IMG/VR virus record: IMGVR_UViG_2882674194_000007
Location: 32,001-96,000 of that record
From: a virus
Lineage: Duplodnaviria > Caudoviricetes
Strand: one strand, 5' to 3'
DNA: 64,000 bases
Shown here in pieces: positions 10,149 through 26,964 of this stretch; positions within the stretch are counted from its first letter, which is position 1, and every line of letters begins with the position of its first letter. Both the position numbers and the translations under genes were made by a program. The notes under the pieces were generated by a model that saw nothing but the letters and a program-made list of their open reading frames with translations, was not told the DNA's origin and did not search any database.

Positions 10149-11000
10149 TTATACCCACTTAGTTTTTCTGTTTTTTACACGATCATACTCTGTTTGTAAT
10201 ATTTGTTTTCTCTCTTCGTATGAGTAAATTTCCTGAGAAATAATTAACTGTGCATCATATCGTTCTAATCTTTCTACATCATCTAATTGATCTTCAGAAA
10301 AATAATTTCGTATCTGTTCATTAGAAGATATATTATGTTCTTTGCGATACTGTGTTGCAGACATTCCAAGTATTACAGTATTTAGTAATGAAAACTCAAT
10401 AGAGTATAAATTGCCATTAGTAATCCATTCAGGAACACCATTAAGTAATTCTTCTCTTTTTGTGATTAAAGCACCACGCAATTCTTTGCAATTAATTAAG
10501 GTGTTTTTGCGGTTTGTATTCCAGTTTGTACGATTTTTAAATGCTTTTTCTATAGCGATAAAATATTTTCTCACTAACTTGGACATTTTCTTTAGCTCTT
10601 CGGATGTACGTCCACCTTTAGAACCGGCAAGCATTGCAATTTCCTTTGCATCGCTGAGCTTTAACTGATAATCAACTAATCCACTCCCCTTTAAAGGTGA
10701 ATCAATAAAATAATCTATGTTTTTAACTAGTTCCAAATCTTCAATTTGTTGTTTGATCCAAGTTGAAAAATCTCGACTAACTTTTAATTGATTATGTAGT
10801 TCTTTTGCGCTAATTGTATTATTTTCATTTTCTTGTAAAATAGGCAAAAGTGACTGATATTCAAGGATTGTGGCTATTTCATTATCAGATAGTCCATATT
10901 GTTTTAATTCTTCTTCAGTAAATTGACCATCTTTGAATGACTCGCTTTCATATACTTTTTCTTTTCTTGGTTTTGTGGTATTTTTGTTTGTAATTCTCAT
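10149..11000 (-). CDS. AntA/AntB family antirepressor
   Basis: ISAKELHNQLKVSRDFSTWIK...DY...AKEIAM...VRKYFIAIEK. Confidence 0.85.
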   Translation of the reverse strand: MRITNKNTTKPRKEKVYESESFKDGQFTEEELKQYGLSDNEIATILEYQSLLPILQENENNTISAKELHNQLKVSRDFSTWIKQQIEDLELVKNIDYFIDSPLKGSGLVDYQLKLSDAKEIAMLAGSKGGRTSEELKKMSKLVRKYFIAIEKAFKNRTNWNTNRKNTLINCKELRGALITKREELLNGVPEWITNGNLYSIEFSLLNTVILGMSATQYRKEHNISSNEQIRNYFSEDQLDDVERLERYDAQLIISQEIYSYEERKQILQTEYDRVKNRKTKWV

Positions 11001-12428
11001 GATTTTATTCCTTTCTTTTATCTTAATTTTTAATGTATATCACATCAGAGTGTGACATACTTGAAGAAAAAATGACAAAGTATATCACACCACAGTGTGC
11101 AGAATCAGCCGTCTTTTTATAAATAAAGACTAATTATATAAATAAAGACTACTATCGTAATGAATTATTCGCATACGCTTCATAATTCATTACTCTCTTA
11201 AAAACTTTTTGATTGTTGATGGTTGGTGATGTTTGGTAGTTACAGGTGGTATAAATTACAAGTTGTAAGATAGAGTAGCAGTGTCTATTTACATATTCTC
11301 TTTCTTTGGATATAAAATTCCTTGTATGTATTAGATCTACAATAGAAAATGCCTTGGATAAAATTAATCAAAGTATTCAAGGACTTCAGCAAAAATAGCT
11401 GTTAAGTCCTTTTTAATTTCTGCTTTGTTAGCTTTAAAGGCATCTATATCTATGGTTAAAATGTAAATTTTTGAGGTATTATTTTAGGGTTTGTCATAGT
11501 TCATGTCTCCTTTATGTAAAATTTTGTATTTACTATTTGTTATTTCTACATTCTGATTTTGATAATGTTATAAATTTTAAATCTGTATTTTGAGCCAATA
11601 GGAGAGTATATGGACAGTAAATAATAAAATATGTAAAATATACCCCCTATGTATATATGGATTAGATTTTTGATTGATATGTTGGATATTTAATATTTCT
11701 CTATTTGAAATGATAATTACGATGAAATATATGGTGTATATTTTATGAGTTCGGTGATGAAGTAATTCTGATATAGCAATGGAATGTAAAAGTACTGATT
11801 TTACTGGATATTTTAAGATTCTTGTGAATGATTTTTAAATGTGATTTTATATATGATTTCTTTTCTTGAGTGCAATTTTAGAGTTAATTCGGGATAATGC
11901 TTATTTTTCAAGGGGTTTAGAAGTTTTTTTGGTTGTATTTTTGTGGTTTGGTAATAGATTTGAATTGTCAGAAAATTTATATTGTATTGATTTATAAGGA
12001 TTTTTGAGAAATGACACCGAATAGGATTCCGAATTGTTTTTACGAATTGTTTGTGTTTCGGACACAATTTTTAAAGGTGATGTGTGAATAGAACAGATAG
12101 GGGCTTTCTGGTAATTACTGATCAATTTCAAAATGTAAACATACCCCTGTATAGTGTTATTGCATATTTTAAGTTACACTTTGCCCATTTTTGCAACCGA
12201 ATGAAAATATATATTCTGTCAAGTAAAAATACTTTACAATGATATTATCCGGCATTTGTCAAGTAATTTTGCTTGACATGTTCGATGTATAAAGCAAAAT
12301 ATATCAAAATGCTATTTTTATATACCATAATACTACATCTATATTATCCAGCAACATCATAATATCACAACTCAAAATATATCATAATGCTATCTAATAT
12401 ACCAAAATGCCACATAACCATCCTTCTA

Positions 12429-12635
12429 TCAATCCTCTTTCCCCTGAATATATCCATCTCTTTCCAACTTTTCCACAATAGCGGTAGTAGTCCATCTATT
12501 CCGGTTCATTCCACTATCAGCCATAGCTTTTTCAACTTCCCGATATATCTCAATAGGGTATTTTACACTGTATTGTTTCATGTTCTCAGCGTCATATTTT
12601 GCTTGATATTCGCTCTGTTTTTTTCTATCTGACAT
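12429..12635 (-). CDS. Ribbon-helix-helix DNA-binding protein
   Basis: QYSVKYPIEIYREVEKAMADSGMNRNRWTTTAIVEKL strand-helix-helix pattern; own promoter. Confidence 0.7.
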   Translation of the reverse strand: MSDRKKQSEYQAKYDAENMKQYSVKYPIEIYREVEKAMADSGMNRNRWTTTAIVEKLERDGYIQGKED

Positions 12636-12671
12636 TTTATACCATCCTTTTTAAAAACCATCTTAAATTGC

Positions 12672-12700
12672 ATTTTAACACGTATTACCTAAGTTGTCAA
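12672..12700 (-). promoter_or_regulatory. Leftward sigma-A promoter for the RHH gene
   Basis: TTGACA-acttaggtaatacgtgt(17)-TAAAAT on the minus strand. Confidence 0.8.
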
Positions 12701-12783
12701 TCAATTAGCAAACTGCACAAAAATAACTAGGTAATACCTAAAATAATTATGTATTATTTTGCTATAAAAAACTAGGTATTACG

Positions 12784-12812
12784 TTGACAATCTAGGTATT
12801 ACGTGTTATAAT
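12784..12812 (+). promoter_or_regulatory. Rightward sigma-A promoter with operator in the spacer
   Basis: TTGACA-atctaggtattacgtgt(17)-TATAAT, extended -10. Confidence 0.9.
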
Positions 12813-12908
12813 CTATACATAAGTTAAAGATAAAGTGTCACACCAAAACAAAGAAGTATATAGCAACAACTACACACAAACAACCACAATGAAAGACAGG
12901 TACACAAT

Positions 12909-13133
12909 ATGAGAATACATTTAAACAATGCAACAGTTAGAGTATCAGGTTTTGAAAACAAAGAAACATTTAATCACACATATCACAATGTTACTTGTAT
13001 TGAAGAAGTAACAGCAAAAGAGATTGAAAAAGAATGTGGCGAAAAAATAGGTGCTTGCATTAGATTACATTTTGAAGATGGTAAAACAGCTACGTTTTCT
13101 AAAAAGTCAAAATTAGATTATGAAGTATTATAA
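12909..13133 (+). CDS. Hypothetical protein
   Basis: First ORF after the rightward promoter. Confidence 0.7.
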   Translation: MRIHLNNATVRVSGFENKETFNHTYHNVTCIEEVTAKEIEKECGEKIGACIRLHFEDGKTATFSKKSKLDYEVL

Positions 13134-13192
13134 ATCCCCTGATGAGCAACGGTGAGAGCCGGCGAAACTACCCAAACAAGGGTAGTCGGGAT
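13134..13192 (+). ncRNA. Type I hammerhead ribozyme
   Basis: Stem I ATCCC/GGGAT, CTGATGA core, stem II GC-aa-CGG..CCG-GC, GAAA, stem III CTACCC/GGGTAG, GTC cleavage triplet at 13185-13187. Confidence 0.92.
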
Positions 13193-13314
13193 ATCAACAC
13201 AACCCAAATAAGCACCACAAAGCACTTTGATAATTGAATAGACTTTGCATCTAAGTTGTGATATACTAACAGTATCAGCCATACATACAATCACAACAAA
13301 AAGGCGGTGATCAT

Positions 13315-13545
13315 ATGACAGATAGTGAAAAACTTGATCTGATTCTTGAAAAAGTAATAACACTTGACAGGAAAGTGACAGACATTGAAAAAGATATGAT
13401 TGATGTTAAGGCCGATTTAAAACAAACTGAACGTGTCTTAAAAAATGAGATACGGAAAGAATGCGGATTAGTGCTCGATGAGATTGAAAGAGTACACGAT
13501 ATCTTAGATAAGCACAAAGAAGATAAAGCAGCACATACAGCATAA
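13315..13545 (+). CDS. Coiled-coil hypothetical protein
   Basis: AAGGCGGTGA RBS; heptad pattern. Confidence 0.7.
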   Translation: MTDSEKLDLILEKVITLDRKVTDIEKDMIDVKADLKQTERVLKNEIRKECGLVLDEIERVHDILDKHKEDKAAHTA

Positions 13546-13573
13546 GCAACAACATACATATATCACATACCAC

Positions 13574-13613
13574 GGTGTAAAGTCTATTGAATTATTAAGG
13601 CTTTACACCTTTT
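13574..13613. terminator. Intrinsic terminator between convergent genes
   Basis: GGTGTAAAGTCT...AGGCTTTACACC followed by a T run. Confidence 0.75.
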
Positions 13614-13623
13614 TAATTTTGTT

Positions 13624-13884
13624 CTAAGGTCTTGTATATGAAGGGCAATTTTGTCCTTTGCAAAGGGCTCCATTGTTTAAAGAAAAAGGACTTTTACAAG
13701 TGCCTACATTATTACAATATTTACATTTTTTATATTTTCTTGATTTGTTATATTCGTAAATATAACCTTTACTATGTATTATATTTGAACCATCGTTATG
13801 GTTAATATCATGGTTCAATCTAGTGTTATAATCTTTTATAATATTTTCAGCCGATTTATTTTTCTTTTTGCTCATAAATATCAC
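13624..13884 (-). CDS. Small Cys-containing hypothetical protein
   Basis: 86-aa ORF with CKYC...C...C...C; converges on the terminator. Confidence 0.55.
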   Translation of the reverse strand: MIFMSKKKNKSAENIIKDYNTRLNHDINHNDGSNIIHSKGYIYEYNKSRKYKKCKYCNNVGTCKSPFSLNNGALCKGQNCPSYTRP

Positions 13885-13951
13885 AACCTTTTACTTTTTA
13901 TTGTAGAATAAATGTGATAGAATATCAATAGTAAAGGAAGGTGAATATTTA

Positions 13952-14152
13952 ATGATTGCTTATTATAAGTTATTAGATATGCTTAATAAAAGAGATATGA
14001 CAAAAGAGCAATTAAGATTAAAAGCTGGACTTGCTTCTGGCACAATGACAAAAATTTCAAAAGGTGAACCTGTAAATTTAAAAACGATTGATCTTATTTG
14101 TAAAGCATTACAAGTACAACCTGGAGATATTCTTGAATATATAGAAAAATAA
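13952..14152 (+). CDS. XRE/Cro-C1 family HTH regulator
   Basis: LRLKAGLASGTMTKISKGEPVNLKTIDLICKALQVQPGDILEY. Confidence 0.92.
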   Translation: MIAYYKLLDMLNKRDMTKEQLRLKAGLASGTMTKISKGEPVNLKTIDLICKALQVQPGDILEYIEK

Positions 14153-14188
14153 AATCTCACGAAAATAGAAAAAATCTCTAATAAAGTG

Positions 14189-14217
14189 TTGACAAGTAAA
14201 ACGCAATATGCTATTAT
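14189..14217 (+). promoter_or_regulatory. Sigma-A promoter for the long non-coding leader and early operon
   Basis: TTGACA-17-TATTAT with extended TG. Confidence 0.8.
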
Positions 14218-14223
14218 ATACTT

Positions 14224-15655
14224 GTAAGGAACACAAGGGAATATAAATCGGTATCACGGCAGTGTCAATAAGACCTGATACATTCTCAACATGGCAGCGT
14301 CAATAAGTCCAGGAGCGATAAAAAGAAAAATCCCAGTTCCAAACGAAACCGGGAAATTTCAAGTAAGTGTGTAAAACTCTTACCCTAAGCAAGTAGAGTA
14401 TAACACAATTCTTGATAATCTGTCAATCGGCAGAAATTTCCCAAAACAAAGTAACTATTAACGTCCTGTCAAGTGGAGTGCTAACAGGATCGTAACTAAG
14501 GCAAAGCAACAAGAGATTGCAAACGAGGTTAGAGAAAAGATAATTGATTCATTAAATTTCCGCAACCTAACGGGAAAACGTGACAGATAGCAGCGTAAAA
14601 ATGTTATCCGTGTTGACTGGACACGCTGACTACATCGGAGACGTGATAGTTCATATCATATCAGACGTAGCAGGGAATACCATCCCAAACCAGAAAATCT
14701 ATGAATATGTGTGAATGCGAGTAGGCAGAAACAAGAGTTTTGCGGTGACTGATTCTGAAACCGTGACCTGTGGGGTGTGGTAGCCGTAACGGGAACGAGA
14801 GACAATCTACTATAATATAGATGGCTCTTTTGATGATAATTTATCGCTGTAGAGGATGGACGGGGAGAAAACACAAAACGATAGACTATATAAAATGGTA
14901 GTTGTAAACCGTGGTTATGGAAGGCTGAGAAATACGTCTTCCAACCGCTAATAAGCGGTATATAAATATACATAAGAACCTTTAGAGAGTGTCAAGAACC
15001 TTTGGCACTCTCTTTTATATTAAAAGCGGTCAACTGCTTTTCAAAAGAAATGTGATGTTCAAGCGAGAAGGAAAAGAGAAATAAGTATTACATCCTGTAA
15101 GGGCTGCCCATGTGGTCATAAGTGCATATATCAGGCACAAGGAAAAGTGATAACCCGTGACACAAGCTTTTTTACATTTGAAAGATTGCACGTATAAAGA
15201 AGGAAGTAAAAATGTAGCGCAAGATAAGGGCGTTAAACTTTCAATCGCTCAAGATCGGCAATGCGATTAATAAATTGTGCCGGCATTGTGTGAAAGCAGG
15301 TATCACACTTACAATGATTACCGCCACAAAGATTTGAGTGTAATAAAATCTGAAAAGTCAGTAAAAGGCGTGGGACTACTGGAGAAGATAATAAACACGA
15401 CAGGCGAACCCCTGAAAAGGAAGAAGGTTATACTATAACTGTAAACTTAAAAAGCTGCTGTCTGGATGCCTGACATATACGGCATATTACATAATTTTAT
15501 TATTTATCATGCCCATAAAAACAGAATCAAACGTGAGGCGGTGCGGAAAGCTGGTGAACCACTCAATACAATGAGGACATAGCCATAAAGCCGGATGCAT
15601 TTAGCCATATCCTTTGAAAAGTCTCTTTTGTGGGCATGGATAAGTAATAAAAGAT
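14224..15655 (+). ncRNA. Putative large structured ncRNA or leader region
   Basis: About 1.4 kb with no sense ORF, GC-richer than neighbours, many stems (GGGAAATTTC 14351/GAAATTTCCC 14433; TCAGGCA/TGCCTGA; long stem 15496-15652). Confidence 0.6.
14984..15017 (+). terminator. Terminator-like hairpin within the leader
   Basis: AGAGAGTGTCAA...TTGGCACTCTCT followed by TTT. Confidence 0.7.
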
Positions 15656-15683
15656 ATGATAATATAGATGTGGAGGAAAAAAT

Positions 15684-16310
15684 ATGAAATCATATGTAAA
15701 ATATGTTGAATGTGCAGATTGTGGAAGAAAAATTCCTATTTGCAACGCCCATTACATCAACGGAAAACCTTATGGATATGGTTGCTATAAAAAGCAGGTT
15801 GCATTACTCTATAAGCGATGGGAAGACGAAAAAAACGCCGAATATTCTGTAAAATGTTTCGCTGCTATGCAAGTGTTTCAAGATAAAAAAAGTAATTCCT
15901 TTCATGATTCTATATGTAAGCAATGGAACGAGTGCAAAAAACTAACTGCTAAACAGTTAAATTGCATCATAAACGGATTTACTGATCAGGAAAATATAAA
16001 TTTCTGGATAATATGGCAACAACTTACAAATGACGAATGCTTAAAATGGAGTATTCCGTTATGGGTAGAAAACACCATTTATAAAAATAAAAAAGGTTTT
16101 GCTGATTATATGGAAAATGAGGCGGTTATAAATTGTTTGCTTTATGATCGCACATATAATAAACAAGGTTTTTATTTTTCCCATGATTTAGAAATTGATC
16201 CAGAAAGAGTTTGTATAATGAAAAATGGTAAAAATAATATTTATCTTCAGGAAGATATAGAAGATGAATATATAGAAGTATTAAAAGTAGTTGAGGGCAT
16301 ACGGAAATAA
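15684..16310 (+). CDS. Hypothetical protein with N-terminal CxxC
   Basis: GGAGGA RBS, 208 aa. Confidence 0.75.
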   Translation: MKSYVKYVECADCGRKIPICNAHYINGKPYGYGCYKKQVALLYKRWEDEKNAEYSVKCFAAMQVFQDKKSNSFHDSICKQWNECKKLTAKQLNCIINGFTDQENINFWIIWQQLTNDECLKWSIPLWVENTIYKNKKGFADYMENEAVINCLLYDRTYNKQGFYFSHDLEIDPERVCIMKNGKNNIYLQEDIEDEYIEVLKVVEGIRK

Positions 16311-16988
16311 TGTATGTCCTCTTTAAATGGAGGTAGATATTATATGGAAACAATATGGATTGAGCACGACAATGGGATCAAGGGGCAACATGGATTTTCC
16401 GAAGAAGAAATTTCCTCTGAAGTTGAAATTGATGCTTTGATCAAAAGCTATGAGGATTGCGGGATTGTGGTTTATGGATGGATATATTAAGCAATGAAAC
16501 AATTATTTGAAGGGAGAAAACTATGATCGAATTATGTTATGCAATATCTGATAAAAAGACAGGTGAAGAAGTTCATAGGAATTATGGGAAATTTGATTCC
16601 TTAGATGAATTTTATTCGTATATGAAGTTTAGATTCGGCTACACAAGTAGAAATTATAGCTTTTTGCTTAGTGGAATAGAAATCCAGTAATCCAGTAAAA
16701 AATATTCTGTCACCACAATAATACTAATATACGGGAAGAGACGAGCTACGCGCCGTCTCTTTTTGTATGGGTTGAGTATGACAGAAGATGAGGAGGACAA
16801 CACTTAAAATGAAACGAATTACCACATATGCAGAATTTCAGGCATTAAAAGCCATTTACAAAGAAGCAAAAGTTGTAAGCGTATCAGATTATGGCGCACT
16901 TATTTTTATAAGAAAATAAAACAGAATGGAGAAGTAGTTATTGATACTGATACATAGACAATCAAAGAAAGGTTAAACGGTGGAAATT

Positions 16989-18662
16989 ATGTCAAATTAT
17001 TATGATTATAGAGAAGTAAAGGTTATGATCGCTCACAAACTTATGTCTATGGAAGGCTGGAAAGTATACGGCTATAAAGAAGACAGAAGCGACAGTATGA
17101 CCGATTATTATGATCCTGCTAATTGGGACGGAGTAGCAGAAAAGAACGGCTATATTTTATGCGTAGATGTTTACGGCGCAGCAGAACCGCAGGAAATCAG
17201 AAAATATAATTACTCTGGTTTTACATATGATCGCAGCATAGCGGAAAAAATCAAAAAGTTGGAAGCTATGACCGTTGAACGTGGAGCTTCTGAAGCAGAG
17301 GAAGCAAGCGCAAAATTATCTATTGAACGTTTGCAGAAAAAAGCAGAAGAAGCAACGGAAAACGCAAATAAATATATTGTTGTTGGTACAGTTCCCGGAC
17401 ATATGGCACACCCTCCAAAAATGAATTGGCATATTGAAAAAGATGGGATCATCATTGCAAAGGGTAACGGCATTTTGAAATTTGCCCATATCTGGAAATA
17501 TTACAATTATAACCGTGATATGGAATGGTTAAACGAATATAAGAAGGACAAAAAAGCATATACCGATAAGCACACACAAGACCTTGTAAACCGTGGATAT
17601 TATGACAGTAAGGAAGACGCAAGAAAGAATACAGAAAGACATATTGAGGATTTAGAGGAAGATATTAAGCTGATAGATAAGTTTGAGACATTCATCAATA
17701 AAATTGATACTTCTTGTGGCGGTTTAATTGGAGAAGGTGACGGCACTATCTACGAAAAAGTTACCGTTACAGAATACAAAAAAGAAAATAAAGTTGTAGA
17801 AGATACGACTGGAAGCATTAAAGAGGGTCAGCTTTTCATTCTGAAATCTAATTTTAATTATGGATGTTATAAAGGGCTTGTATATCGTATCCATGAAACA
17901 GAGAGAAACGGACAGAAACATTTTCATGCTTATAAACTAAATGGAAAACTTACAAAGGAATGTACAGGAAACGCAAGCCGTAATAACTATTGGTTTGTTG
18001 GTAGTGGTGATTCTGAATGCCTCACAAAATGGATTGAAAAGGGTTCTATTGCATGGTGTCATATTGAAGAGGTAAAAACGCCATATGAGGTGGAAAAGGT
18101 TGTAAAAAAGACTATTAAAGCAGAAAAGAAAAATACGACATCTACCACAACGGAAACGGCACAAACAGAGGAAACAGACGTAAACGCCTATGCATATGAA
18201 GTATCAGAAGACACGGACACACGTACAGGAGAAAAAATATATCTTGTGAAGGTTGCGGAAAAATTGAGCCGTGAAGAGTATATAACCGTAAACAAGTATA
18301 TTAAATCTTTGGGCGGTTATTACTCGAAATTTAAACACGCCTTCTTATTTAAGGAAAATCCGGCAGAAAAGTTGAACACAACTATAGTGGAAACTACACA
18401 GACGGCAGAACCGGCACAGGAAGCACAAAGCACAAGGGAAGAACCAGAAGCGAAAAAAGAAAGTATTTCCTATACAATTATAGAAGATCAGCACACGCAA
18501 ACACACGCGAAAATCTGGATTGTAAAGCCTGAAAAGGAATTAAACAAGACGGATTTTGCAGAGGTTAAGCGGAAACTTGCAACGCTACAAGGCTACTATA
18601 GCACATTCAAACACGGATTTATTTTTAAATATAATCCAAAGGAAGTATTACAGACTGGATAA
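16989..18662 (+). CDS. Large multidomain early protein (DUF2786-like helix and duplicated C-terminal domain)
   Basis: EKIKKLEAM...GASEAEEASA; two copies of a GYYS(K/T)FKH(A/G)F(L/I)FK domain. Confidence 0.7.
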   Translation: MSNYYDYREVKVMIAHKLMSMEGWKVYGYKEDRSDSMTDYYDPANWDGVAEKNGYILCVDVYGAAEPQEIRKYNYSGFTYDRSIAEKIKKLEAMTVERGASEAEEASAKLSIERLQKKAEEATENANKYIVVGTVPGHMAHPPKMNWHIEKDGIIIAKGNGILKFAHIWKYYNYNRDMEWLNEYKKDKKAYTDKHTQDLVNRGYYDSKEDARKNTERHIEDLEEDIKLIDKFETFINKIDTSCGGLIGEGDGTIYEKVTVTEYKKENKVVEDTTGSIKEGQLFILKSNFNYGCYKGLVYRIHETERNGQKHFHAYKLNGKLTKECTGNASRNNYWFVGSGDSECLTKWIEKGSIAWCHIEEVKTPYEVEKVVKKTIKAEKKNTTSTTTETAQTEETDVNAYAYEVSEDTDTRTGEKIYLVKVAEKLSREEYITVNKYIKSLGGYYSKFKHAFLFKENPAEKLNTTIVETTQTAEPAQEAQSTREEPEAKKESISYTIIEDQHTQTHAKIWIVKPEKELNKTDFAEVKRKLATLQGYYSTFKHGFIFKYNPKEVLQTG

Positions 18663-18716
18663 TATAAAGGCGGTTGAAATATACCGACTTGCATAATGAA
18701 AGGAATGATTTTTTAT

Positions 18717-20357
18717 ATGTTTACAGGTAATAAAGACTTTTACCCTACACCACAAAATATTATTGACAAGATGCTTTTTGATTTAGATTTTACAATGATA
18801 AAAAGTATTTTGGAACCATCGGCGGGTAAGGGGGATATAGTTGAGACATTAAAGAAGAAAGAAGGAAACCATAATAAATATTATGGCAAACAATACTATC
18901 AGTTTGATATTGATTGTATAGAAGCTGATCAGAATCTGCAGCATATTCTTAAAGGGAAAAATTTCCGTGTTGTTTATAATGATTTTCTTACATATAACAC
19001 GATGAAGGAATACGATCTAATTATTATGAATCCGCCTTTTTCTAACGGTTGCAAACATCTTTTAAAGGCTTTAGAAATGCAACAAAGAAATGGCGGTGCG
19101 GTTGTGTGTCTTCTCAATGCGGAAACTTTAAAAAATCTATGTACAAATGATAGGCAGTATTTACAGCGTAAACTCACAGAATATAACGCAAAAATTGAGT
19201 TTATACAAAATGCTTTTCTGGATGCGGAACGGAAAACGGCGGTTGAAATTGCGCTTGTAAAGGTTCAGCTTCCAGAGGTGCAAAGAGAATCTTTTATATT
19301 GGAAAGATTAAGAAAAGCAAAAGATCAAAAAGAATTTCAGGCAGAGGAAAGCACAAAACTAATTGATAGTGATTTTTTCAAGGCTATTGTAAAACAATAT
19401 CAGTTAGAAGTGGAAGCAGGAATAAAATTGATTAAAGAATATTATGCAATGCAGCCGTTTATTTTGTCACAGTTTGGAAAAGACGAAAAGACAGGGGAAA
19501 CGATACAAAAAGGCGGCTGTATTATCTCCATGACTTGTAGTAAAAATGGGCTTTCTGTTAATGAATATATAAAAATGGTGCGGAGTAAATATTGGAATGC
19601 ACTTTTTGAAAATAAAAGATTTATAGGGCAGCTTACAAATAATCTGCAAAGAGATTTTTATAATAAAGTGGAAGAATTAAGTAACTATGATTTTTCACTT
19701 TATAATATCTACCAGTTAAAAATTGATATACAGAAAAAAGTTGTTAAAGGAATAGAGGATACCATAATAGATCTTTTTGATGAATTAAGTTATAAATACC
19801 ATTGGCTTGATGAAACGTCAAAAAACATTCACTATTACAATGGATGGAAAACAAACAAGGGATGGATAATCAATAAAAAAGTGATTATTCCTTTAAATGG
19901 TTTTTATGACCTTAATTATTCATGGGGAGGATTCAGACCGTCAAGGCATGATGTTGTAAGTAAATTACAGGATATAGAAAAATGTTTTAACTATCTTGAT
20001 GGAGGGCTAACAGAAGCGGTTGATCTGGAAGAATCCCTAAAGTTTGCAGAGGAATACGGAGAGACAAAGAATATACAGTTAAAGTATTTTACTGTCACAT
20101 TCTACAAAAAAGGTACATGTCATATTGTATTTAACAATGACGAGTTACTGAAAAAATTTAATATATTTGGTTCTCAGCACAAAGGATGGTTGCCACCTTC
20201 CTACGGAAAGAAGGATTATAAAAATATGACAGCAGAAGAAAAAGCAGTTGTAAATGAGTTTGAAGGAGAAAAAGAGTATAGCAAAGTTATTTCTAATAAA
20301 GAGTATTACTTGTTTGATGGAAATAATCTGAATTTACTGGAAGAGAAAACGGCATAA
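18717..20357 (+). CDS. N6-adenine DNA methyltransferase, DUF4942-type
   Basis: FYPTP, ILEPSAGKG, IIMNPPF motifs; YKKGTCHI C-terminal domain. Confidence 0.85.
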   Translation: MFTGNKDFYPTPQNIIDKMLFDLDFTMIKSILEPSAGKGDIVETLKKKEGNHNKYYGKQYYQFDIDCIEADQNLQHILKGKNFRVVYNDFLTYNTMKEYDLIIMNPPFSNGCKHLLKALEMQQRNGGAVVCLLNAETLKNLCTNDRQYLQRKLTEYNAKIEFIQNAFLDAERKTAVEIALVKVQLPEVQRESFILERLRKAKDQKEFQAEESTKLIDSDFFKAIVKQYQLEVEAGIKLIKEYYAMQPFILSQFGKDEKTGETIQKGGCIISMTCSKNGLSVNEYIKMVRSKYWNALFENKRFIGQLTNNLQRDFYNKVEELSNYDFSLYNIYQLKIDIQKKVVKGIEDTIIDLFDELSYKYHWLDETSKNIHYYNGWKTNKGWIINKKVIIPLNGFYDLNYSWGGFRPSRHDVVSKLQDIEKCFNYLDGGLTEAVDLEESLKFAEEYGETKNIQLKYFTVTFYKKGTCHIVFNNDELLKKFNIFGSQHKGWLPPSYGKKDYKNMTAEEKAVVNEFEGEKEYSKVISNKEYYLFDGNNLNLLEEKTA

Positions 20358-20391
20358 AGCCGATGAAATTGTAATTTGAAGGGAAAAACAC

Positions 20392-20595
20392 ATGAACACA
20401 ATACCACGATATATGAAAGAGTATGCTAATGCGCAGCGCAAAAGCTATATGAACAATGAATTAATGCAGAAAAAGTACAAAGATGCAGCCGTGGAAATTA
20501 TAGAACGTATTTTAAAAAATGTGGAGCATGGATTCATTACAATAGATGAGGGGATGAAAGCGTTATGTGATCCGCTTGATGGAATAGTTTTGTAG
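20392..20595 (+). CDS. Hypothetical protein
   Basis: RBS; co-oriented. Confidence 0.7.
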   Translation: MNTIPRYMKEYANAQRKSYMNNELMQKKYKDAAVEIIERILKNVEHGFITIDEGMKALCDPLDGIVL

Positions 20596-20680
20596 GCAGT
20601 TAGAACGGCTATTGAGAATATAAGGATATAGCCGTTTTATAGTGCTTATAAATTTCATAATAAGTAGAGAGGAAAACACT

Positions 20681-21103
20681 ATGAAGAAAATAACTAAGAC
20701 TATTTTAAAAATTGCAGTTATCGGAACCATGCTTGCTAGTGCTTATCTGTTAGGCACTACACGCACAGAGACTGTCATAGAGACACAGAAAGTCATTGAG
20801 ATGGTGGAAGTTATACCAGATGGTTATATCGGCTTAAATGAGGCTATACCACTGGAAGATGTGGCTTGCTGGTTCATGGATGGATATGACTACCCATGTT
20901 TTGAACTGAAAGACGTGGCTACACAGTACAACGCAGATAATACGCGATCATATGCGGATATTCTGGAAACATTACCAGACCATACAGCCGAATTTCAAGA
21001 AAATTTCATTGATATGCGAATGGTGGATGACTTTGTAGCCACGGAAAACGGCTTACACCTCTATTTTGAGGATGGAACAGGCCACTACATAGAAATAGAT
21101 TAA
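20681..21103 (+). CDS. Membrane-anchored or secreted hypothetical protein
   Basis: MKKITK followed by a hydrophobic stretch. Confidence 0.7.
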   Translation: MKKITKTILKIAVIGTMLASAYLLGTTRTETVIETQKVIEMVEVIPDGYIGLNEAIPLEDVACWFMDGYDYPCFELKDVATQYNADNTRSYADILETLPDHTAEFQENFIDMRMVDDFVATENGLHLYFEDGTGHYIEID

Positions 21104-21134
21104 GAAAGTACATAGAGGAGGGCAAAAAAGGGAA

Positions 21135-21368
21135 ATGATGGCACAATTCAAATATACAGAAATTACAACGCGATCTGGTAATACGAAAGTATGTGTCTTT
21201 CGGAAAGTAAAAACAATGTCACCGTATAAAAAACGATGGCTTATACAGAAAATCCTAGGCGCTGTGCTGATTGTTGCTTGTGTAGCCGGATGTTGTAACA
21301 TGCCAGAAGATTGCGGAGGTTTTATTGTAGGTGGATTAATGGGGATAGTAAGGGTTGTTTGTGATTAA
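21135..21368 (+). CDS. Small membrane protein
   Basis: Two hydrophobic segments. Confidence 0.6.
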   Translation: MMAQFKYTEITTRSGNTKVCVFRKVKTMSPYKKRWLIQKILGAVLIVACVAGCCNMPEDCGGFIVGGLMGIVRVVCD

Positions 21369-21394
21369 CAATAGTAGAAGGGAGATTTTGAACT

Positions 21395-21637
21395 ATGACT
21401 AAAATAGAATATAGTAAATGTGTGAAACTTATGGAAGAAGCCATCTGGAAAGCCAATAATTCTAATGAGGATTATAGGGCATATGAGCGTTTGAAAAAAG
21501 AAGGGAAAAGTGTTGATGCAGAATGTAAGTTACGTGTAGCAGATCAAGAAATTGGATATGCAGAAGGAATAAATCAGGCACTTGCTACACTTGGCTTTAA
21601 ACATGACAGAATGAAGGAATTATCTGAGTTGCTGTAA
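21395..21637 (+). CDS. Hypothetical protein
   Basis: RBS; stop overlaps the palindromic motif. Confidence 0.7.
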   Translation: MTKIEYSKCVKLMEEAIWKANNSNEDYRAYERLKKEGKSVDAECKLRVADQEIGYAEGINQALATLGFKHDRMKELSELL

Positions 21638-21650
21638 ATCGTGTATTTCA

Positions 21651-21935
21651 TTGGAGGGAATAAAGGTGGAAAGGGTTTTAATTTTTAAATATCCGATTGA
21701 ATTTTCGGATAAAGTAAAGCAAATAAAAGAAGCATTTAAAATTCATAACATAGAGTTTATATGTTATGAATCAAACGGATATTATGATCATGAATTTATG
21801 GTCAGAAAGTCAGGTAAAAGATGGAATGATATATATACTATTATTAATTCTGTTAGACCAGCAAAGTATGAGTTTAAGAAGACTTGTATTGAAGTGATAA
21901 ATGGAGAATTAAAAGAGATAGTATATTGTCAATGA
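21651..21935 (+). CDS. Hypothetical protein
   Basis: Bounded by motif copies at 21635 and 21933. Confidence 0.65.
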   Translation: MEGIKVERVLIFKYPIEFSDKVKQIKEAFKIHNIEFICYESNGYYDHEFMVRKSGKRWNDIYTIINSVRPAKYEFKKTCIEVINGELKEIVYCQ

Positions 21936-22334
21936 AACTACTGATTCAACCATAGAAGGGATAAAGCATGAAAAAATATGGATTCAAAAAATTAAATAAT
22001 GGATGGCGTTTCAAAATCGGTGGAACGTCTGGAGAAGCGTTTGGAATTACACTAAGATATTTTAATAAATGTGGCTTTCGGCTTCTAATAAATTTTAATA
22101 CGGATTTTCTTATAAATCTTTTTGGATTCAATCAAAAGATTATTGGTGTTTGAAAGCTCCTACAAGTCCATTTAAAGCCTTAAATCAGCGCATATGCAAA
22201 TATGTATGTGCGTTGCATTAAGTCCTTAAATAAGGCAAATAAACAGTATAGAAAGAGAAGTATAGAGCAAGTGACAAGTGGAAATGTTGCTTGCTTTTAT
22301 TATTGGAAAATCAAATAGAATGGAGGAAATTTTT

Positions 22335-22979
22335 ATGCGTACAGTAACAGAAACTTACAATGTGTATACTTATCCTGAGTTGTCGGAGGAAGCAAAAGAA
22401 AAAGTTAATCAGTGGTATCTTGATGATCCGTGCAGAAATGACGAATTTTCGGAAATTTACACAGAGGATTTACACAATCTTTTCCCGGGAAGTGATTTAA
22501 AGATGCAATATTCATTATCATATTGTCAGGGAGACGGTTTAAATATTTACGGAGAACTTGACTTGATGGATGTATTTAAGGCAATCCGGAACAAGTTATA
22601 TTGTGGTGAAACATTCAAGGATTTTTGGGATTATATGACGGAACATGAGCAGAAGACCATAGAGGCATATATGGAAGTTTGTGGAAGAACTGTTACATTG
22701 CCTTATAATGACGGACATTATAATTATTGCGTATCTGATAAGACGGATTTTGCTGAAGGTTGGATATATGATCTTGAATATCAGCAGTATAAAAATATTC
22801 AGGTTGACACAATCCGAAAAATGGAAAAATTAGTTGCTGATATGTTTGTAATGCTTTCTAAACAATATGAAGAATACGGCTATAAATATTTTTATGAAGC
22901 GGATGAAGAAGAAGTAACAGAAACTTGTGAAGCTAATGGATGGGAATTTTTAGAAGATGGAACATTCTATGCAGCATAA
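22335..22979 (+). CDS. Acidic early phage protein
   Basis: YPELSEEAKEKV...CEANGWEFLEDG pattern recalled from early/anti-defence regions. Confidence 0.65.
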   Translation: MRTVTETYNVYTYPELSEEAKEKVNQWYLDDPCRNDEFSEIYTEDLHNLFPGSDLKMQYSLSYCQGDGLNIYGELDLMDVFKAIRNKLYCGETFKDFWDYMTEHEQKTIEAYMEVCGRTVTLPYNDGHYNYCVSDKTDFAEGWIYDLEYQQYKNIQVDTIRKMEKLVADMFVMLSKQYEEYGYKYFYEADEEEVTETCEANGWEFLEDGTFYAA

Positions 22980-22991
22980 GGAGGGCAAGAC

Positions 22992-23222
22992 ATGAGCACA
23001 AACGACTACATAAGGCAATCAGCAAATAAATACCATTGGCACAAATATTATTCTGTTATGCGTCCTGTAAGTATCGGAACGCATCCTAAAAATGGAATGA
23101 TGGATTTTATCAACTATGATTGCAGAACGGAAGTAAATGGGCGTATGGTATGGGCTGAGTTGTACTATAACCGGGAATTGACACAGAATGAAATGGAAGA
23201 ATTTGAGATGATCAGAGGATAG
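22992..23222 (+). CDS. DarA C-terminal-domain-like anti-restriction protein
   Basis: YYSVMRPVSIGTHPK...YNRELT...EFEM. Confidence 0.65.
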   Translation: MSTNDYIRQSANKYHWHKYYSVMRPVSIGTHPKNGMMDFINYDCRTEVNGRMVWAELYYNRELTQNEMEEFEMIRG

Positions 23223-23234
23223 GGAGGAGATAAC

Positions 23235-23456
23235 ATGAAACATAAAGAACTTTATGATGCTATTACAGATTTTCGGATAAAATATGGTAGCCGGAAATTT
23301 AATGATGATGAAAATATGACAGCATATAGAAATCTTGTTGATATGTCTATTAAGTGTGGAATTATACCAGAATGTAATAGGAAAGAATATTCTACACATG
23401 GGAGATTAATGGCAGCTATCACATATGAAGGTAATAGAATAGCATTTTGCCAATGA
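23235..23456 (+). CDS. Hypothetical protein
   Basis: GGAGGAG RBS; stop overlaps motif. Confidence 0.7.
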   Translation: MKHKELYDAITDFRIKYGSRKFNDDENMTAYRNLVDMSIKCGIIPECNRKEYSTHGRLMAAITYEGNRIAFCQ

Positions 23457-23483
23457 AAGAATCGTTTGAACGGAGGAAAATTT

Positions 23484-23729
23484 ATGAGTAAAACAACAGA
23501 ATGTAAATTAGTGAGCGTAATTACGGAATATTGGTTTAAATGCATTTCGAAAGAAGATGACAGACAAGCAGATAGAGATATAAATAATTTGCTTGAAATT
23601 TTTGTAAGAGATTGTAATGTGTCATATTATTATGATGATTTAGATAGAACGATTTTTAATCTTACAAATTCACAGAAGCGCAAATTATATAAGAATATGT
23701 TAAATAGTGGTATTCTTGAAAGACAATAA
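23484..23729 (+). CDS. Hypothetical protein
   Basis: GGAGG RBS. Confidence 0.7.
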   Translation: MSKTTECKLVSVITEYWFKCISKEDDRQADRDINNLLEIFVRDCNVSYYYDDLDRTIFNLTNSQKRKLYKNMLNSGILERQ

Positions 23730-23844
23730 ATTGTATTTATAACCAGTTAGAAGGCATTAGCGGAAATATTCGTTAGTGCCTTCTATAGTGGATATAAACA
23801 CAGAATAAATGGAGAAATAGAGAGTGGAAAGGATGGTTTTTACT

Positions 23845-24369
23845 ATGGGAAACAAAACATTATTAGAAAGATTTACAGAGCTTGCAAACAATAGAAAAGC
23901 GGAAATTATAGAATTACAAAATATGTACTTACTGAAACAGATTGAAAATGAAATGGTTCAGGAACGATTTAAGGAAGTAGATAATAAAGTATTAGCAGAG
24001 AATCCCTTTTACTCTAACCGTGATTGCGAACGGAGCGAAAGCGGAAATAAAATTTCTAAAGGTGATAGGATTCTTTCAAGTGACGATCAGTGGCTTATGA
24101 ATATAGAGGATTATGATAAATTTCTGGAAATTTGCAAAAAAGAGAATTATGTTGTTGGTCTTACTGATGAAGAAGGAAGATATACAGAGGAAACTAATAC
24201 GGAAAATCAGTTAAAAGATATTAAGGAAAAGCTGATCCGTTTGTCAGTGGAAATTTTACCAGAGGATTTTCCTAACAAAAAGTTGTTAGAGGATGCTATT
24301 GAGTATAAGGGATGTCAGTCTTATAAAACACGAGAAACACTTTTTGAATTTGTTATGAAATTGAGATAA
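23845..24369 (+). CDS. Hypothetical protein
   Basis: AAGGA RBS, 174 aa. Confidence 0.75.
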   Translation: MGNKTLLERFTELANNRKAEIIELQNMYLLKQIENEMVQERFKEVDNKVLAENPFYSNRDCERSESGNKISKGDRILSSDDQWLMNIEDYDKFLEICKKENYVVGLTDEEGRYTEETNTENQLKDIKEKLIRLSVEILPEDFPNKKLLEDAIEYKGCQSYKTRETLFEFVMKLR

Positions 24370-24565
24370 ACGGATGAATCAATGGATTCATGGAAGGAGA
24401 AGTTATGAGAGGGATCAAGAATCCGAATGTGGATATTAAAACAGACGGAAATGATATTATTGTAACAGATGGAAAGACGGAATATTTTCGGAAACCAAAA
24501 ACGAAACAGACAGTTGCTATTGCACATGATATTTATTTTGCAGAAAAGTATATGGATTTGGAGGA

Positions 24566-24817
24566 ATGATCATGAAAAAATATTCATATGCGGTGGAAAA
24601 CCATTTCCAAAACGTCATTAAAAAATCGTGGAGTTGGGGAAAATTGACAAAGGAAGAACGCCAACGATTTATTGATATGAATGTATTTGACAAGATAAAA
24701 GGAAACGATCAGACAAGAATAGAGTGGTTAAATACTATATATCAATCTTTCTTGGCTGCATTGGATTTTAAACCTATCGGATGGAGAGAAGAGGAAAAAG
24801 ATATTCCTCAATTTTAA
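24566..24817 (+). CDS. Hypothetical protein
   Basis: GGAGG RBS. Confidence 0.7.
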   Translation: MIMKKYSYAVENHFQNVIKKSWSWGKLTKEERQRFIDMNVFDKIKGNDQTRIEWLNTIYQSFLAALDFKPIGWREEEKDIPQF

Positions 24818-24867
24818 GTAACAAAAGGCAAGGAAATAATGATTTTAAGTAGAAAGAGAGGAAAACT

Positions 24868-25392
24868 ATGAAAAACAGAGTTATGAATTATAAAGGATAT
24901 GTTATCAGTACAGAAGAAGGAATAGAAAAGGGATTATTTTTTAGGAATCCATTACAGGAAGCTAGTTTTGATGCTTATTATGATGAACCTAAAATGTCGG
25001 CATGGAAATATTTGTATGATATTAAAAATCCTTTTAGAAGGGTTTTTGAAATCCTGATCGGCAATGGAAACATTGTTAAAAATATCAAAGAATGGTCTAA
25101 TGATGCGGATTGGGGAGGATTTACAGGAAATATTTTGTGTTGCCCGATTTATTTCAAGAGAGAATACAGGCGGTTAAACGCCGTATCAAGTGGAAGTGAC
25201 AACATTCAGGAAATTAATTCTTATGGATATGAGGGCGAATTTGAAATTTGTGCTGGGCATTGTAAGACGGAAAAAACTGTCATTAAAATGAAGAATGGAA
25301 AGAAGATCAGAATTAAAAGAGGTAAATCATATCATTTCACATATGAACATTTTGTAAAAGAAATTATTGATACGGGTGTTATCAGCGAATAA
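24868..25392 (+). CDS. Hypothetical protein
   Basis: Bounded by motif copies at 24832 and 25400. Confidence 0.75.
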   Translation: MKNRVMNYKGYVISTEEGIEKGLFFRNPLQEASFDAYYDEPKMSAWKYLYDIKNPFRRVFEILIGNGNIVKNIKEWSNDADWGGFTGNILCCPIYFKREYRRLNAVSSGSDNIQEINSYGYEGEFEICAGHCKTEKTVIKMKNGKKIRIKRGKSYHFTYEHFVKEIIDTGVISE

Positions 25393-25426
25393 AAGTCAAT
25401 AAAAACACAATTTTGAGGAGGAATAT

Positions 25427-25597
25427 ATGATTAAGGCTGGGATAATTAGATAATTTGATGATCTTGGAAGAATTGTAATTCCTAGATCGGTAAGACAGGA
25501 AGTTTTTGGAACAAGTAAAAATGAAGGGAAATCAATGAAAATTTTTTATGAAAAAGATGGAACAATTATACTTAAACCAATAAAAGTGGAGGGATAA
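25427..25597 (+). pseudogene. AbrB/SpoVT-family regulator with premature stop
   Basis: MIKAGIIR*FDDLGRIVIP; TAA at 25451. Confidence 0.75.
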
Positions 25598-25601
25598 TAA
25601 T

Positions 25602-25844
25602 ATGGCTCAATATGGAATAAGTGTAAGGGAAATTTTGAAGAGAACTGTTATTGTAGAAGCGGAAAGTCTTGAGGAAGCAATACAGAAAGTAGAAGATGCT
25701 GTGGAACGTGAGGAAATCATTCTGGATGTAGATGATTATGACGATCGGGAAATTGTACCGTCTGAATATTTTGGTAACGGCTCAGGAGAAGTTCCTGAAG
25801 GGGAAGATGTTAGTTCCTATTGGCACATTGGAGAAGATAATTGA
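25602..25844 (+). CDS. DpnD/PcfM family protein
   Basis: VREILKRTVIVEAESLEEAIQKVEDA...IILD. Confidence 0.75.
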   Translation: MAQYGISVREILKRTVIVEAESLEEAIQKVEDAVEREEIILDVDDYDDREIVPSEYFGNGSGEVPEGEDVSSYWHIGEDN

Positions 25845-26938: not shown

Positions 26939-26964
26939 TAGGCAACGAAAGGAAGGTAAATAGT

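What the first reader, a model, noticed from the sequence alone, without database searches (positions are those of the whole stretch)
14224..15655. 1.4-kb structured non-coding region heading the early operon: possible large ncRNA or antitermination leader
Seen: a consensus promoter (14189) followed by about 1.4 kb with no sense ORF in an otherwise gene-dense genome. It splits into roughly three parts. The first, 14224-15017, has many hairpins and ends in a terminator. The second, about 15120-15480, is closed by TCAGGCA/TGCCTGA. The third, 15496-15652, is closed by a long G-U-containing stem (TTTTATTATTTATC-ATGCCCATAAAA / TTTTGTGGGCAT-G-GATAAGTAATAAAA). Known: Firmicute phages encode large ornate RNAs (GOLLD, ROOL), and RNA-based antiterminators exist (HK022 put, EAR). 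Inference: the downstream operon of over 30 kb has many terminator-like hairpins and would need read-through. I cannot assign a family.
Basis: partly seen in the sequence, partly recalled or inferred. Interest (0 to 1): 0.78.

Follow-up and report, generated by a model that had tools for sequence, protein, structure and literature searches.

The report
Modular structured RNA leader, phage operon
The 1.4-kb gene-free stretch is real and consists of several conserved folded-RNA modules, one carrying a small antisense RNA gene, placed between a strong promoter and a long, apparently promoter-poor prophage operon; it matches no catalogued RNA family and its function is still untested.

Summary
Window 14224-15655 has no sense ORF under code 11 or any single stop reassignment. 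It is G+C-enriched, follows an 11/12 sigma-70 promoter, and matches no Rfam 15 family.

It is not one RNA. It is a chain of five modules that recombine among about 35 related loci, from 143-159 kb IMG/VR viral contigs, Lachnospiraceae genomes (several from mouse gut) and unlabelled metagenome contigs:
- M1a: a 5' cassette holding a conserved ~70-nt antisense sRNA gene.
- M1b: a ~500-nt body with an 87-nt nearly invariant double stem-loop.
- T: a terminator module.
- M2: a closed 16-helix domain of ~370 nt.
- M3: a 158-nt long hairpin.

Covariation supports M1a, M2, M3 and an alternative 'type B' body found in relatives. Support for the window's own body is modest.

The next 20 kb has no strong promoter, so transcripts of the operon probably pass through this leader.

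Best reading (0.42): a leader gated by an antisense RNA and a terminator, like pCF10 prgQ/Anti-Q or lambda PR'-tR', with portable structured RNA cassettes attached. Put-like antitermination is possible but untested. All function is inferred; no expression data could be obtained.

The parts
14189..14217 (+). Sense promoter, TTGACA-17-TATTAT with TG; transcription start near 14224
   Evidence: 11/12. Conserved, and 12/12, in relatives L006, L007 and L016. A 7-bp inverted repeat ACAAGTA/TACTTGT at 14192-14198 and 14219-14225 brackets it.
14224..14450 (+). M1a: 5' domain of the leader, the target of the antisense RNA. It includes two GGCAGYGTCAATAAG repeats whose copy number varies.
   Evidence: 92-95% identical in G187, L007 and L046. 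Consensus fold against column shuffles gives z = -5.9. The repeats are absent in L037 and fused into one in L016.
14320..14426 (-). Antisense sRNA gene. Promoter TTGACA-18-TATACT at 14426->14397, transcript about 14390->14320 (~70 nt), variable stem-loop 1, terminator 14354->14331 followed by a U-run.
   Evidence: The fourth terminator pair is G.U, U.G or A-U on the minus strand but A.C or C.A on the plus strand. Stem-loop 1 has at least four variants with compensating changes. L024 has a sequence-unrelated cassette and L026 a minus-strand promoter at the same place.
14451..14950 (+). M1b: 'type A' non-coding body, with an 87-nt near-invariant double stem-loop at 14461-14547
   Evidence: The core has 1-2 differences to L006/L016, whose flanks are 54-66% identical, and 7 differences to L009. 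For roughly 14430-14700, consensus fold z = -3.0 with 8 compensated pairs against a maximum of 6 in 100 shuffles. The 3' half is not significant.
14951..15093 (+). T module: CCGCU/AGCGG hairpin, terminator hairpin 14984-15013, second hairpin 15022-15041, and a conserved single-stranded stretch GGAATGTGATGTTCAAGCGAGAA
   Evidence: (z = -7.1). Present in nearly all related loci. The U-tract is weaker in most relatives.
15113..15490 (+). M2: closed structured domain of ~370 nt with 16 helices
   Evidence: 90 pairs, 93.7% of cells paired; 16 pairs changed on both sides (0 of 500 shuffles reach this; slid controls give 1-5). The plus strand gives 16 compensated pairs, the minus strand 7. Absent from G187, L006, L016 and L024; lies between two ORFs in L049 and L031.
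15495..15652 (+). M3: long hairpin with a 26-bp A/U-rich outer stem, a rod-like interior and an invariant 3' arm
   Evidence: 49 pairs, 97.5% paired; 8 pairs changed on both sides (6 of 500 shuffles). 20 loci match the model. L010 keeps only a 57-nt outer-stem hairpin with three G.U pairs on the plus strand. Stands alone between ORFs in L022.
15672..15686 (+). Ribosome-binding site GGAGGA and ATG of the first gene of the operon (208 aa)
   Evidence: No promoter better than 9/12 lies between T and this gene.

Best explanation
This is the non-coding leader of the main rightward operon of a temperate phage of at least 150 kb that infects Lachnospiraceae. I read it as working at the RNA level, as a gate with attached cassettes.

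Proposed sequence of events:
1. The near-consensus promoter at 14189 starts a transcript whose first ~170 nt are fully complementary to a ~70-nt antisense sRNA. That sRNA is made from a convergent promoter inside the leader.
2. After a ~500-nt structured body, most transcripts meet the intrinsic terminator at 14984-15013.
3. Only transcripts that pass it continue through the two further folded domains, M2 and M3, into the methyltransferase-rich operon, which has no strong promoter of its own for at least 20 kb.
4. The antisense RNA and the terminator together set how much transcription enters the operon. The antisense could act through attenuation, RNase III cleavage of the duplex, or promoter interference.
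5. The 26-bp stem of M3, just upstream of the first ribosome-binding site, probably serves as a processing or stabilising site that separates leader from mRNA.

Shown here: the absence of coding, the promoters, the terminators, the module boundaries, and the conserved, co-varying structures.

Inferred only: transcription itself, the regulatory outcome, and the roles of M1b, M2 and M3.
For: Architecture:
- Sense promoter 11/12, antisense promoter 11/12, antisense terminator and sense terminator are all found.
- No promoter above 10/12 lies in 15650-35600.

Antisense gene:
- It is conserved in 8 sequences.
- Its stem-loop 1 shows compensating changes.
- Its terminator pairs only on the minus strand.
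- L024 carries a sequence-unrelated cassette at the same position. L026 has an 11/12 minus-strand promoter there, and I read a hairpin with a U-run on its minus strand from the sequence.

Structure:
- M1a z = -5.9 and T z = -7.1.
- M2 has 16 compensated pairs, reached by 0 of 500 shuffles.
- M3 has 8, reached by 6 of 500.
- The alternative type B body has z = -5.4 with 15 compensated pairs, against a maximum of 9 in shuffles.
- One-sided changes in M2 and M3 are almost all wobble-compatible on the plus strand.

Context:
- A Cro-type HTH gene lies immediately upstream.
- Genes for a DNA methyltransferase with DUF4942 and a related large protein lie downstream.
- The element is a 32% G+C prophage in a 47.6% G+C host.
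Against:
- The antisense target is about 600 nt from the terminator. No alternative terminator/antiterminator pairing was found, so classical attenuation is not demonstrated.
- The terminator's U-tract is poor in most relatives, so it may be only a stable hairpin there.
- Some relatives replace the body with small ORFs, or nearly delete it (L021, L030). The body is therefore dispensable for the gate.
- M2 and M3 occur away from any leader, so they may have nothing to do with gating.
- The alignments have few independent lineages, 2-5 per module, and the structures were predicted from the same alignments on which pairs were counted.
Confidence: 0.42

Rival explanations
1. The modules are stand-alone, trans-acting structured RNAs. 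The ~790-nt promoter-to-terminator RNA and the M2 domain would have a job of their own, for example an RNA-only assembly in the manner of ROOL or GOLLD, or a decoy against a host defence. Their position ahead of the operon would be incidental.
For: - Module 1 is a discrete promoter-to-terminator unit.
- Two sequence-unrelated but structured bodies, types A and B, occupy the same slot.
- M2 is a closed 16-helix domain that is present or absent as a block and occurs in other intergenic places.
- The 87-nt block is nearly invariant.
Against: - No match to any Rfam family.
- Narrow distribution: not found in 150 other sampled genomes of the family.
- No complementarity of 15 nt or more to other parts of the window.
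- Some relatives lack the body altogether.
Confidence: 0.2
2. This is a cis-acting processive antitermination RNA of the HK022 put or B. subtilis EAR kind. The invariant double stem-loop at 14461-14547 would fold in the nascent transcript and make RNA polymerase resistant to the terminator at 14984 and to later ones.
For: - Two directly adjacent stem-loops are conserved almost to the base, while the flanks diverge to 54-66% identity.
- The element lies downstream of a Cro-like gene and upstream of the first terminator.
- The downstream operon is long and lacks strong promoters.
Against: - Type B loci, and loci with a small ORF in the slot, keep the same terminator module but lack this core.
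- The invariant stems give no covariation.
- Downstream terminator-like hairpins are not clearly above chance.
Confidence: 0.12
3. M3, and perhaps M2, are RNA-processing cassettes. They would be either RNase III sites or self-cleaving ribozymes of an undescribed class, doing the same job as the twister and pistol ribozymes found in the same operon of sister phages.
For: - A type-P1 twister ribozyme lies in L006 and a pistol ribozyme in L009, in intergenic positions of the same operon.
- M3 lies 20-30 nt upstream of ribosome-binding sites, sometimes directly after a stop codon.
- Its conserved nucleotides flank internal loops.
- A minimal 57-nt version keeps only the long duplex.
Against: - No ribozyme model matches the window even at E = 10.
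- The invariant 3' arm also occurs without its partner arm. That fits a sequence-specific site better than a fold.
- In several loci a sigma-70 promoter directly follows M3.
Confidence: 0.14
4. The feature acts at the DNA level or is a relic: conserved linker sequences that promote module exchange, a replication origin with an RNA primer, or decayed genes.
For: - Module boundaries coincide with recombination junctions.
- An 8-nt direct repeat TATTACAT flanks M2.
- The M3 outer stem scores on both strands.
- A long sense RNA with an antisense RNA over its 5' part also recalls ColE1 RNA II and RNA I.
Against: - Compensating and wobble-only changes are specific to one strand.
- There is no conserved frame and no codon-position bias.
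- No iterons or replication genes were seen nearby.
Confidence: 0.06

Closest known systems
pCF10 prgQ / Anti-Q (Enterococcus), and the related countertranscript attenuation of pIP501 and pT181 (my own knowledge of these systems)
   Same: A strong promoter, a leader of several hundred nt and an intrinsic terminator gate a very long operon. A small antisense RNA with its own terminator is made from a convergent promoter inside the 5' part of the leader.
   Different: There is no leader-encoded peptide and no PrgX-like partner was identified. The target and the terminator are about 600 nt apart. No alternative fold linking the two was found. This leader carries large extra structured domains.
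Lambda PR'-6S RNA-tR' with Q, and lambda nutR-tR1 with N (my own knowledge)
   Same: A constitutive-looking promoter, a terminated short RNA, then tens of kb of genes that need read-through. The element follows a cro-like gene.
   Different: No Q- or N-like protein was identified. The leader is four times longer, structurally conserved, and regulated by an antisense RNA.
HK022 put and B. subtilis EAR (RNA-only antitermination; my own knowledge)
   Same: A folded element in the nascent early transcript lies upstream of terminators. The invariant core forms two adjacent stem-loops.
   Different: There is no sequence or model match. The core is absent from sister loci that keep the terminator. 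Function is untested.
P22 sar and lambda OOP antisense RNAs (my own knowledge)
   Same: A cis-encoded antisense RNA of about 70 nt, with a hairpin plus terminator, opposes an early phage transcript.
   Different: Those RNAs overlap a coding region or a ribosome-binding site. Here the target is non-coding.
GOLLD and ROOL large ornate RNAs (Rfam; PMC12286853, PMC5737381)
   Same: Large, many-helix, prophage-borne RNAs of unknown function in Firmicutes.
   Different: No covariance-model match. This region is modular rather than a single fold, it heads an operon, and its distribution is very narrow.
RNase III processing hairpins of the early transcripts of phages T7 and SP82 (my own knowledge)
   Same: A long, nearly perfect duplex lies between cistrons of an early operon, just upstream of a ribosome-binding site (M3).
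   Different: M3 has a ~100-nt co-varying interior and an invariant 3' arm that also occurs alone. Cleavage is untested.

Membership tests
GOLLD / ROOL / any Rfam 15 family | Match to the family covariance model | tested here: not met
   The gathering-threshold scan of the window found only three tRNAs. E-value scans of 14100-15750, 15085-15670 and 14440-14960 gave only chance-level hits, all far below gathering scores.
Self-cleaving ribozymes (twister, pistol, hammerhead, hatchet and others) | Match to a ribozyme covariance model | tested here: not met
   No match in window 12500-17300 at E <= 1 or in the finding at E <= 10. Relatives do carry a twister-P1 (L006) and a pistol (L009) elsewhere in the operon.
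Countertranscript-gated leader (pCF10 prgQ/Anti-Q type) | Convergent sense and antisense promoters with overlapping transcripts | tested here: met
   Sense promoter at 14189-14217 and antisense promoter at 14426-14397, both 11/12 and both conserved in relatives.
Countertranscript-gated leader (pCF10 prgQ/Anti-Q type) | Small antisense RNA with its own terminator, complementary to the 5' part of the leader | tested here: met
   The terminator pairs only on the minus strand, and stem-loop 1 co-varies.
Countertranscript-gated leader (pCF10 prgQ/Anti-Q type) | Intrinsic terminator downstream of the target, ahead of a long operon without its own promoter | tested here: met
   Terminator at 14984-15013. 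No site above 10/12 in the next 20 kb. Caveat: the U-tract is weak in most relatives.
Countertranscript-gated leader (pCF10 prgQ/Anti-Q type) | Antisense binding switches the leader between antiterminator and terminator folds | tested here: inconclusive
   No convincing alternative pairing between the target region and the terminator was seen on reading the sequence (my inspection, not a dedicated search). The two are about 600 nt apart.
Countertranscript-gated leader (pCF10 prgQ/Anti-Q type) | Leader encodes a signalling peptide | tested here: not met
   No conserved ORF. The ATG at 14291 opens 27 codons in the window, and the frame shifts in L007.
HK022 put / EAR antitermination RNA | Conserved folded element in the nascent RNA between the promoter and the first terminator | tested here: inconclusive
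   An 87-nt near-invariant double stem-loop is present, but it offers no covariation and is absent from type B loci.
HK022 put / EAR antitermination RNA | Confers terminator read-through in cis | not testable with these tools
   Needs in vitro transcription or reporter assays.
ColE1-type RNA II primer / RNA I | Leader ends at an origin; replication functions nearby | not tested
   No iterons were found among repeats of 11000-22000, and the neighbouring proteins scanned are not replication proteins. No specific search for an origin was made.
Type I toxin-antitoxin | Small conserved toxin ORF opposite the antisense RNA | tested here: not met
   The sense-strand frames opposite the sRNA differ between close relatives, and no ribosome-binding site precedes them.

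The most novel reading that the evidence does not exclude
The leader is a cluster of at least three undescribed families of large structured RNA: the type A and type B bodies, the 16-helix M2 domain, and M3. These would behave as portable cassettes in the early operons of temperate phages of about 150 kb in gut Lachnospiraceae, in the same slots where sister phages carry twister and pistol ribozymes. At least one of them would be a new ribozyme or an RNA machine acting in trans, not merely a regulatory leader.
Probability: 0.22. Interest if true: 0.82.

Novelty: new variant of a known kind. Interest (0 to 1): 0.6.

Why it matters
If the gate model holds, the whole early programme of a very large temperate gut phage hangs on one RNA-controlled checkpoint. 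That programme includes the methyltransferase genes that probably protect incoming DNA. The antisense stem-loop varies between close relatives in the way specificity determinants of plasmid copy control and phage immunity do.

Independently of function, the region yields several candidate RNA families that are new to Rfam and show covariation, among them a 370-nt closed domain. They sit in a neighbourhood that in sister phages holds known self-cleaving ribozymes. Neighbourhoods of that kind are where earlier searches found new ribozyme classes (my recollection of the literature, not checked here).

The limits are a narrow host range, few independent sequences, and no expression data.

Tried and rejected
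- Alternative genetic codes (TGA, TAG or TAA read through): no long frame opens.
- The 105-aa antisense ORF: no family match, not conserved, no codon bias.
- Rfam at gathering and at permissive thresholds: nothing.
- Phage GenBank blastn of the whole leader: no match.
- Two exact-word scans of viral contigs with words from M3 and M1a found nothing. The 208-aa downstream protein gave no viral relatives.
- Testing the global minimum-energy fold of module 1 against substitutions in L006/L016: no better than slid controls. The single big fold is therefore rejected in favour of local helices.
- The 3' half of the type A body: consensus fold not significant.
- Search for trans targets (shared words of 12 nt or more elsewhere in the window): chance level.
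- The M3 3' arm as a repeated phage promoter: only one copy in the 177-kb contig.
- The M3 model in 150 other genomes of the family: not found in those searched.
- Each module is single-copy in the host genome.
- Literature searches found no description.
- M2 as a group I intron or MITE was considered because of the flanking 8-nt repeat. It was dropped: no model match, single copy, and no terminal inverted repeats.

Full report
**Observation**

- A TTGACA-17-TATTAT promoter with an upstream TG lies at 14189-14217.
- The longest sense frame in 14150-15700 is 57 codons. Reading TGA, TAG or TAA as sense does not open a long frame.
- The only sizeable antisense ORF (105 aa) has no Pfam or PHROG match. 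In relatives it is broken by stops and a 38-nt insertion, and its substitutions show no codon-position bias.
- G+C rises to 0.36-0.44 from about 0.25-0.30 in the upstream flank.
- The terminator at 14984-15013, the TCAGGCA/TGCCTGA closure and the long stem at 15495-15652 are all present.
- No Rfam 15 family matches, at gathering or at permissive thresholds.

**Context**

- The window lies in a 177-kb contig. Its first ~150 kb have about 32% G+C, against 47.6% for the genome, so this is an integrated prophage of at least 150 kb.
- Related IMG/VR contigs are 143-159 kb.
- The genome records that share the element are all titled Lachnospiraceae or Acetatifactor muris; several of them are from mouse gut.
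- Immediately upstream lies a 66-aa Cro/C1-type HTH gene.
- Downstream lie a 208-aa protein with no family match, then a 560-aa protein that matches stretches of very large phage proteins annotated as methyltransferases, then a 553-aa DNA methyltransferase with DUF4942.
- In the 20 kb after the leader no sigma-70-like site exceeds 10/12, which is no more than shuffles give.
- Transcription of this operon therefore most likely comes from the 14189 promoter and the 12/12 promoter at 12784, and it has to cross the leader.

**It is a mosaic, not one RNA**

About 35 related loci were gathered in three ways:
- through the 560-aa protein;
- through an invariant 22-mer of module 3;
- through a hairpin of the terminator module.

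They carry the parts in different combinations. I distinguish five modules:

| Module | Window coordinates | Content |
|---|---|---|
| M1a | 14224-14450 | 5' domain, target of the antisense RNA |
| M1b | 14451-14950 | non-coding body |
| T | 14951-15093 | terminator module |
| M2 | 15113-15490 | closed structured domain |
| M3 | 15495-15652 | long hairpin |

- T is nearly universal.
- M2 is missing in G187, L006, L016 and L024.
- The body exists in at least two sequence-unrelated versions: type A (the window, L007, L047; diverged in L006, L016, L009) and type B (G187, L046, L024, L039).
- In other loci the body is replaced by small ORFs of 45-63 aa.
- In L049 and L031, part of T together with M2 and M3 follows the stop codon of a protein gene. 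In L022, M3 alone does so.
- M2 and M3 are therefore portable intergenic cassettes.

**An antisense sRNA gene in the 5' domain**

An earlier first-stage note on this genome pointed me to this feature.
- On the minus strand, TTGACA-18-TATACT (14426->14397) is followed about 45 nt later by a 10-pair hairpin and a U-run (14354->14320).
- Eight distinct homologues keep the promoter and the terminator.
- The first stem-loop changes on both sides and stays paired, in at least four variants.
- The fourth pair of the terminator stem is G.U, U.G or A-U on the minus strand. It would be A.C or C.A on the plus strand. Selection has therefore acted on the minus-strand RNA.
- L024 has a different hairpin and a different 13-pair terminator at the same place.
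- L026 has an 11/12 minus-strand promoter. I also read a hairpin with a U-run on the minus strand there, from the sequence.
- No conserved small ORF lies opposite the sRNA, which argues against a type I toxin-antitoxin pair.

**Evidence for structure, module by module**

The test compared RNAalifold consensus energy with column-shuffled alignments.

| Module | z (plus / minus strand) | Compensated pairs |
|---|---|---|
| M1a | -5.9 / -5.2 | - |
| T | -7.1 / - | - |
| M2 | -3.9 / - | 16 on plus (0 of 100 shuffles reach it); 7 on minus (22 of 100) |
| M3 | -6.2 / -4.5 | - |
| Type B body | -5.4 / -2.3 | 15, against a maximum of 9 |
| Type A body, roughly 14430-14700 | -3.0 / - | 8, against a maximum of 6 |
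| Type A body, rest | about -0.5 to -1.2 | not significant |

The pair-counting tool gave:
- M2: 90 pairs in 16 helices, 93.7% of cells paired, 16 pairs changed on both sides (shuffle mean 7.4, 0 of 500 reach it; slid controls 1-5).
- M3: 49 pairs, 97.5% paired, 8 pairs changed on both sides (6 of 500; slid controls 1-2).

Further observations:
- One-sided changes in M2 and M3 are almost all G-C/G-U or A-U/G-U exchanges on the plus strand.
- A 57-nt minimal M3 in L010 has three G.U pairs that would be C.A on the other strand.
- The global minimum-energy fold of module 1 is not supported by substitutions in L006/L016. Only local helices should be trusted.

Caveats: each module has only 2-5 independent lineages, and the structures were derived from the same alignments on which pairs were counted.

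**Two features point to sequence-specific recognition rather than folding alone**

1. An 87-nt block of the type A body (14461-14547) folds as two directly adjacent stem-loops. It differs at only 1-2 positions from L006/L016, whose flanking sequence is 54-66% identical.
2. The 3' arm of M3 is invariant and also occurs without its partner arm, after stop codons and just upstream of ribosome-binding sites or of sigma-70 promoters. It is single-copy in this prophage, so it is not a repeated phage promoter.

**Mechanism**

The architecture is: strong promoter, convergent antisense RNA gene, long leader, intrinsic terminator, then a long operon without a strong promoter. To my knowledge this is the arrangement of pCF10 prgQ/Anti-Q. 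Without the antisense RNA, it is also that of lambda PR'-tR'.

I therefore favour a gate controlled by an antisense RNA and a terminator (0.42). In this reading M3 is a probable processing or stabilising hairpin.

Points against:
- The distance between antisense target and terminator is about 600 nt.
- No alternative fold linking the two was found.
- The U-tract is weak in most relatives.
- The body is dispensable in some relatives.

Rivals:
- Stand-alone trans-acting RNAs (0.20).
- RNA-processing cassettes or undescribed ribozymes (0.14). This is prompted by a twister-P1 in L006 and a pistol in L009 within the same operon.
- Put/EAR-like antitermination by the invariant core (0.12).
- DNA-level or relic explanations (0.06).

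**Novelty**

- No Rfam family matches and no description was found in the literature.
- The kind of regulation proposed is known. The large co-varying cassettes are new candidate families.
- Distribution is narrow. The M3 model was not found in 150 other sampled genomes of the family, and the DNA matched in only two of 200 (one of these, G182, is only a 29-nt match at E = 1.6e-4).
- All functional statements are inference.

Noticed in passing
L006:2702-2771 (+) and L009:1099-1169 (+): Sister phages carry a type-P1 twister ribozyme (67.9 bits, just upstream of the 560-aa gene) and a pistol ribozyme (69 bits) in intergenic positions of the same early operon. The window has neither.
   Followed up: partly
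window 13134-13192: An earlier first-stage note called this a hammerhead ribozyme. No Rfam hammerhead model matched in 12500-17300 at E <= 1, nor in the whole window at gathering threshold.
   Followed up: partly
G000 contig C133 (window = 32153-96152): The contig is 177 kb. About 150 kb have ~32% G+C, followed by host DNA at ~50% G+C. So this is an integrated prophage of at least 150 kb whose left end runs off the contig. The junction is near contig position 150,000.
   Followed up: partly
window 14192-14198 and 14219-14225: A 7-bp inverted repeat ACAAGTA / TACTTGT brackets the sense promoter from the -35 box to the start site. It is conserved in L007. It may be an operator for the adjacent HTH protein.
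   Followed up: no
window 15085-15092 and 15483-15490: An 8-nt direct repeat TATTACAT flanks M2 at exactly the boundaries where relatives lack the module. It suggests deletion or insertion by recombination at a short repeat.
   Followed up: partly
window 14258-14275, 14293-14310, 14421-14434: The GGCAG and GTCAAT motifs recur three times. On the minus strand each reads as a TTGAC(A/G) -35-like box, and one (14268->14240) scores 11/12 as a promoter facing the sense promoter. Copy number varies from 0 to 2 in relatives.
   Followed up: partly
L002 (G187) about 1745-1925 (-), and L021/L030: In some relatives a 58-63-aa ORF (MTEE(E)VKQNLIDRYVMLLQIK...) lies between the sense promoter and the leader body or the T module. 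The slot can therefore hold protein cargo as well as RNA.
   Followed up: no
window 52791-53669, 56868-57905, 49137-49287: The same long operon encodes a Thg1-like tRNA-His guanylyltransferase and a reverse transcriptase (PHROG E = 3.5e-103), and holds tRNA-Gln and tRNA-Met genes. No Rfam RNA partner for the reverse transcriptase was seen at gathering threshold.
   Followed up: no
L017, L024, L026 downstream of M3: In these loci M3 is followed by a TTGATT-17-TATCAT promoter and a different first gene (MYTVEFYEDKNGVSEVRDYF...). From memory this looks like a Gp49/HigB-type toxin; that was not tested. The cargo behind the leader is exchangeable.
   Followed up: no
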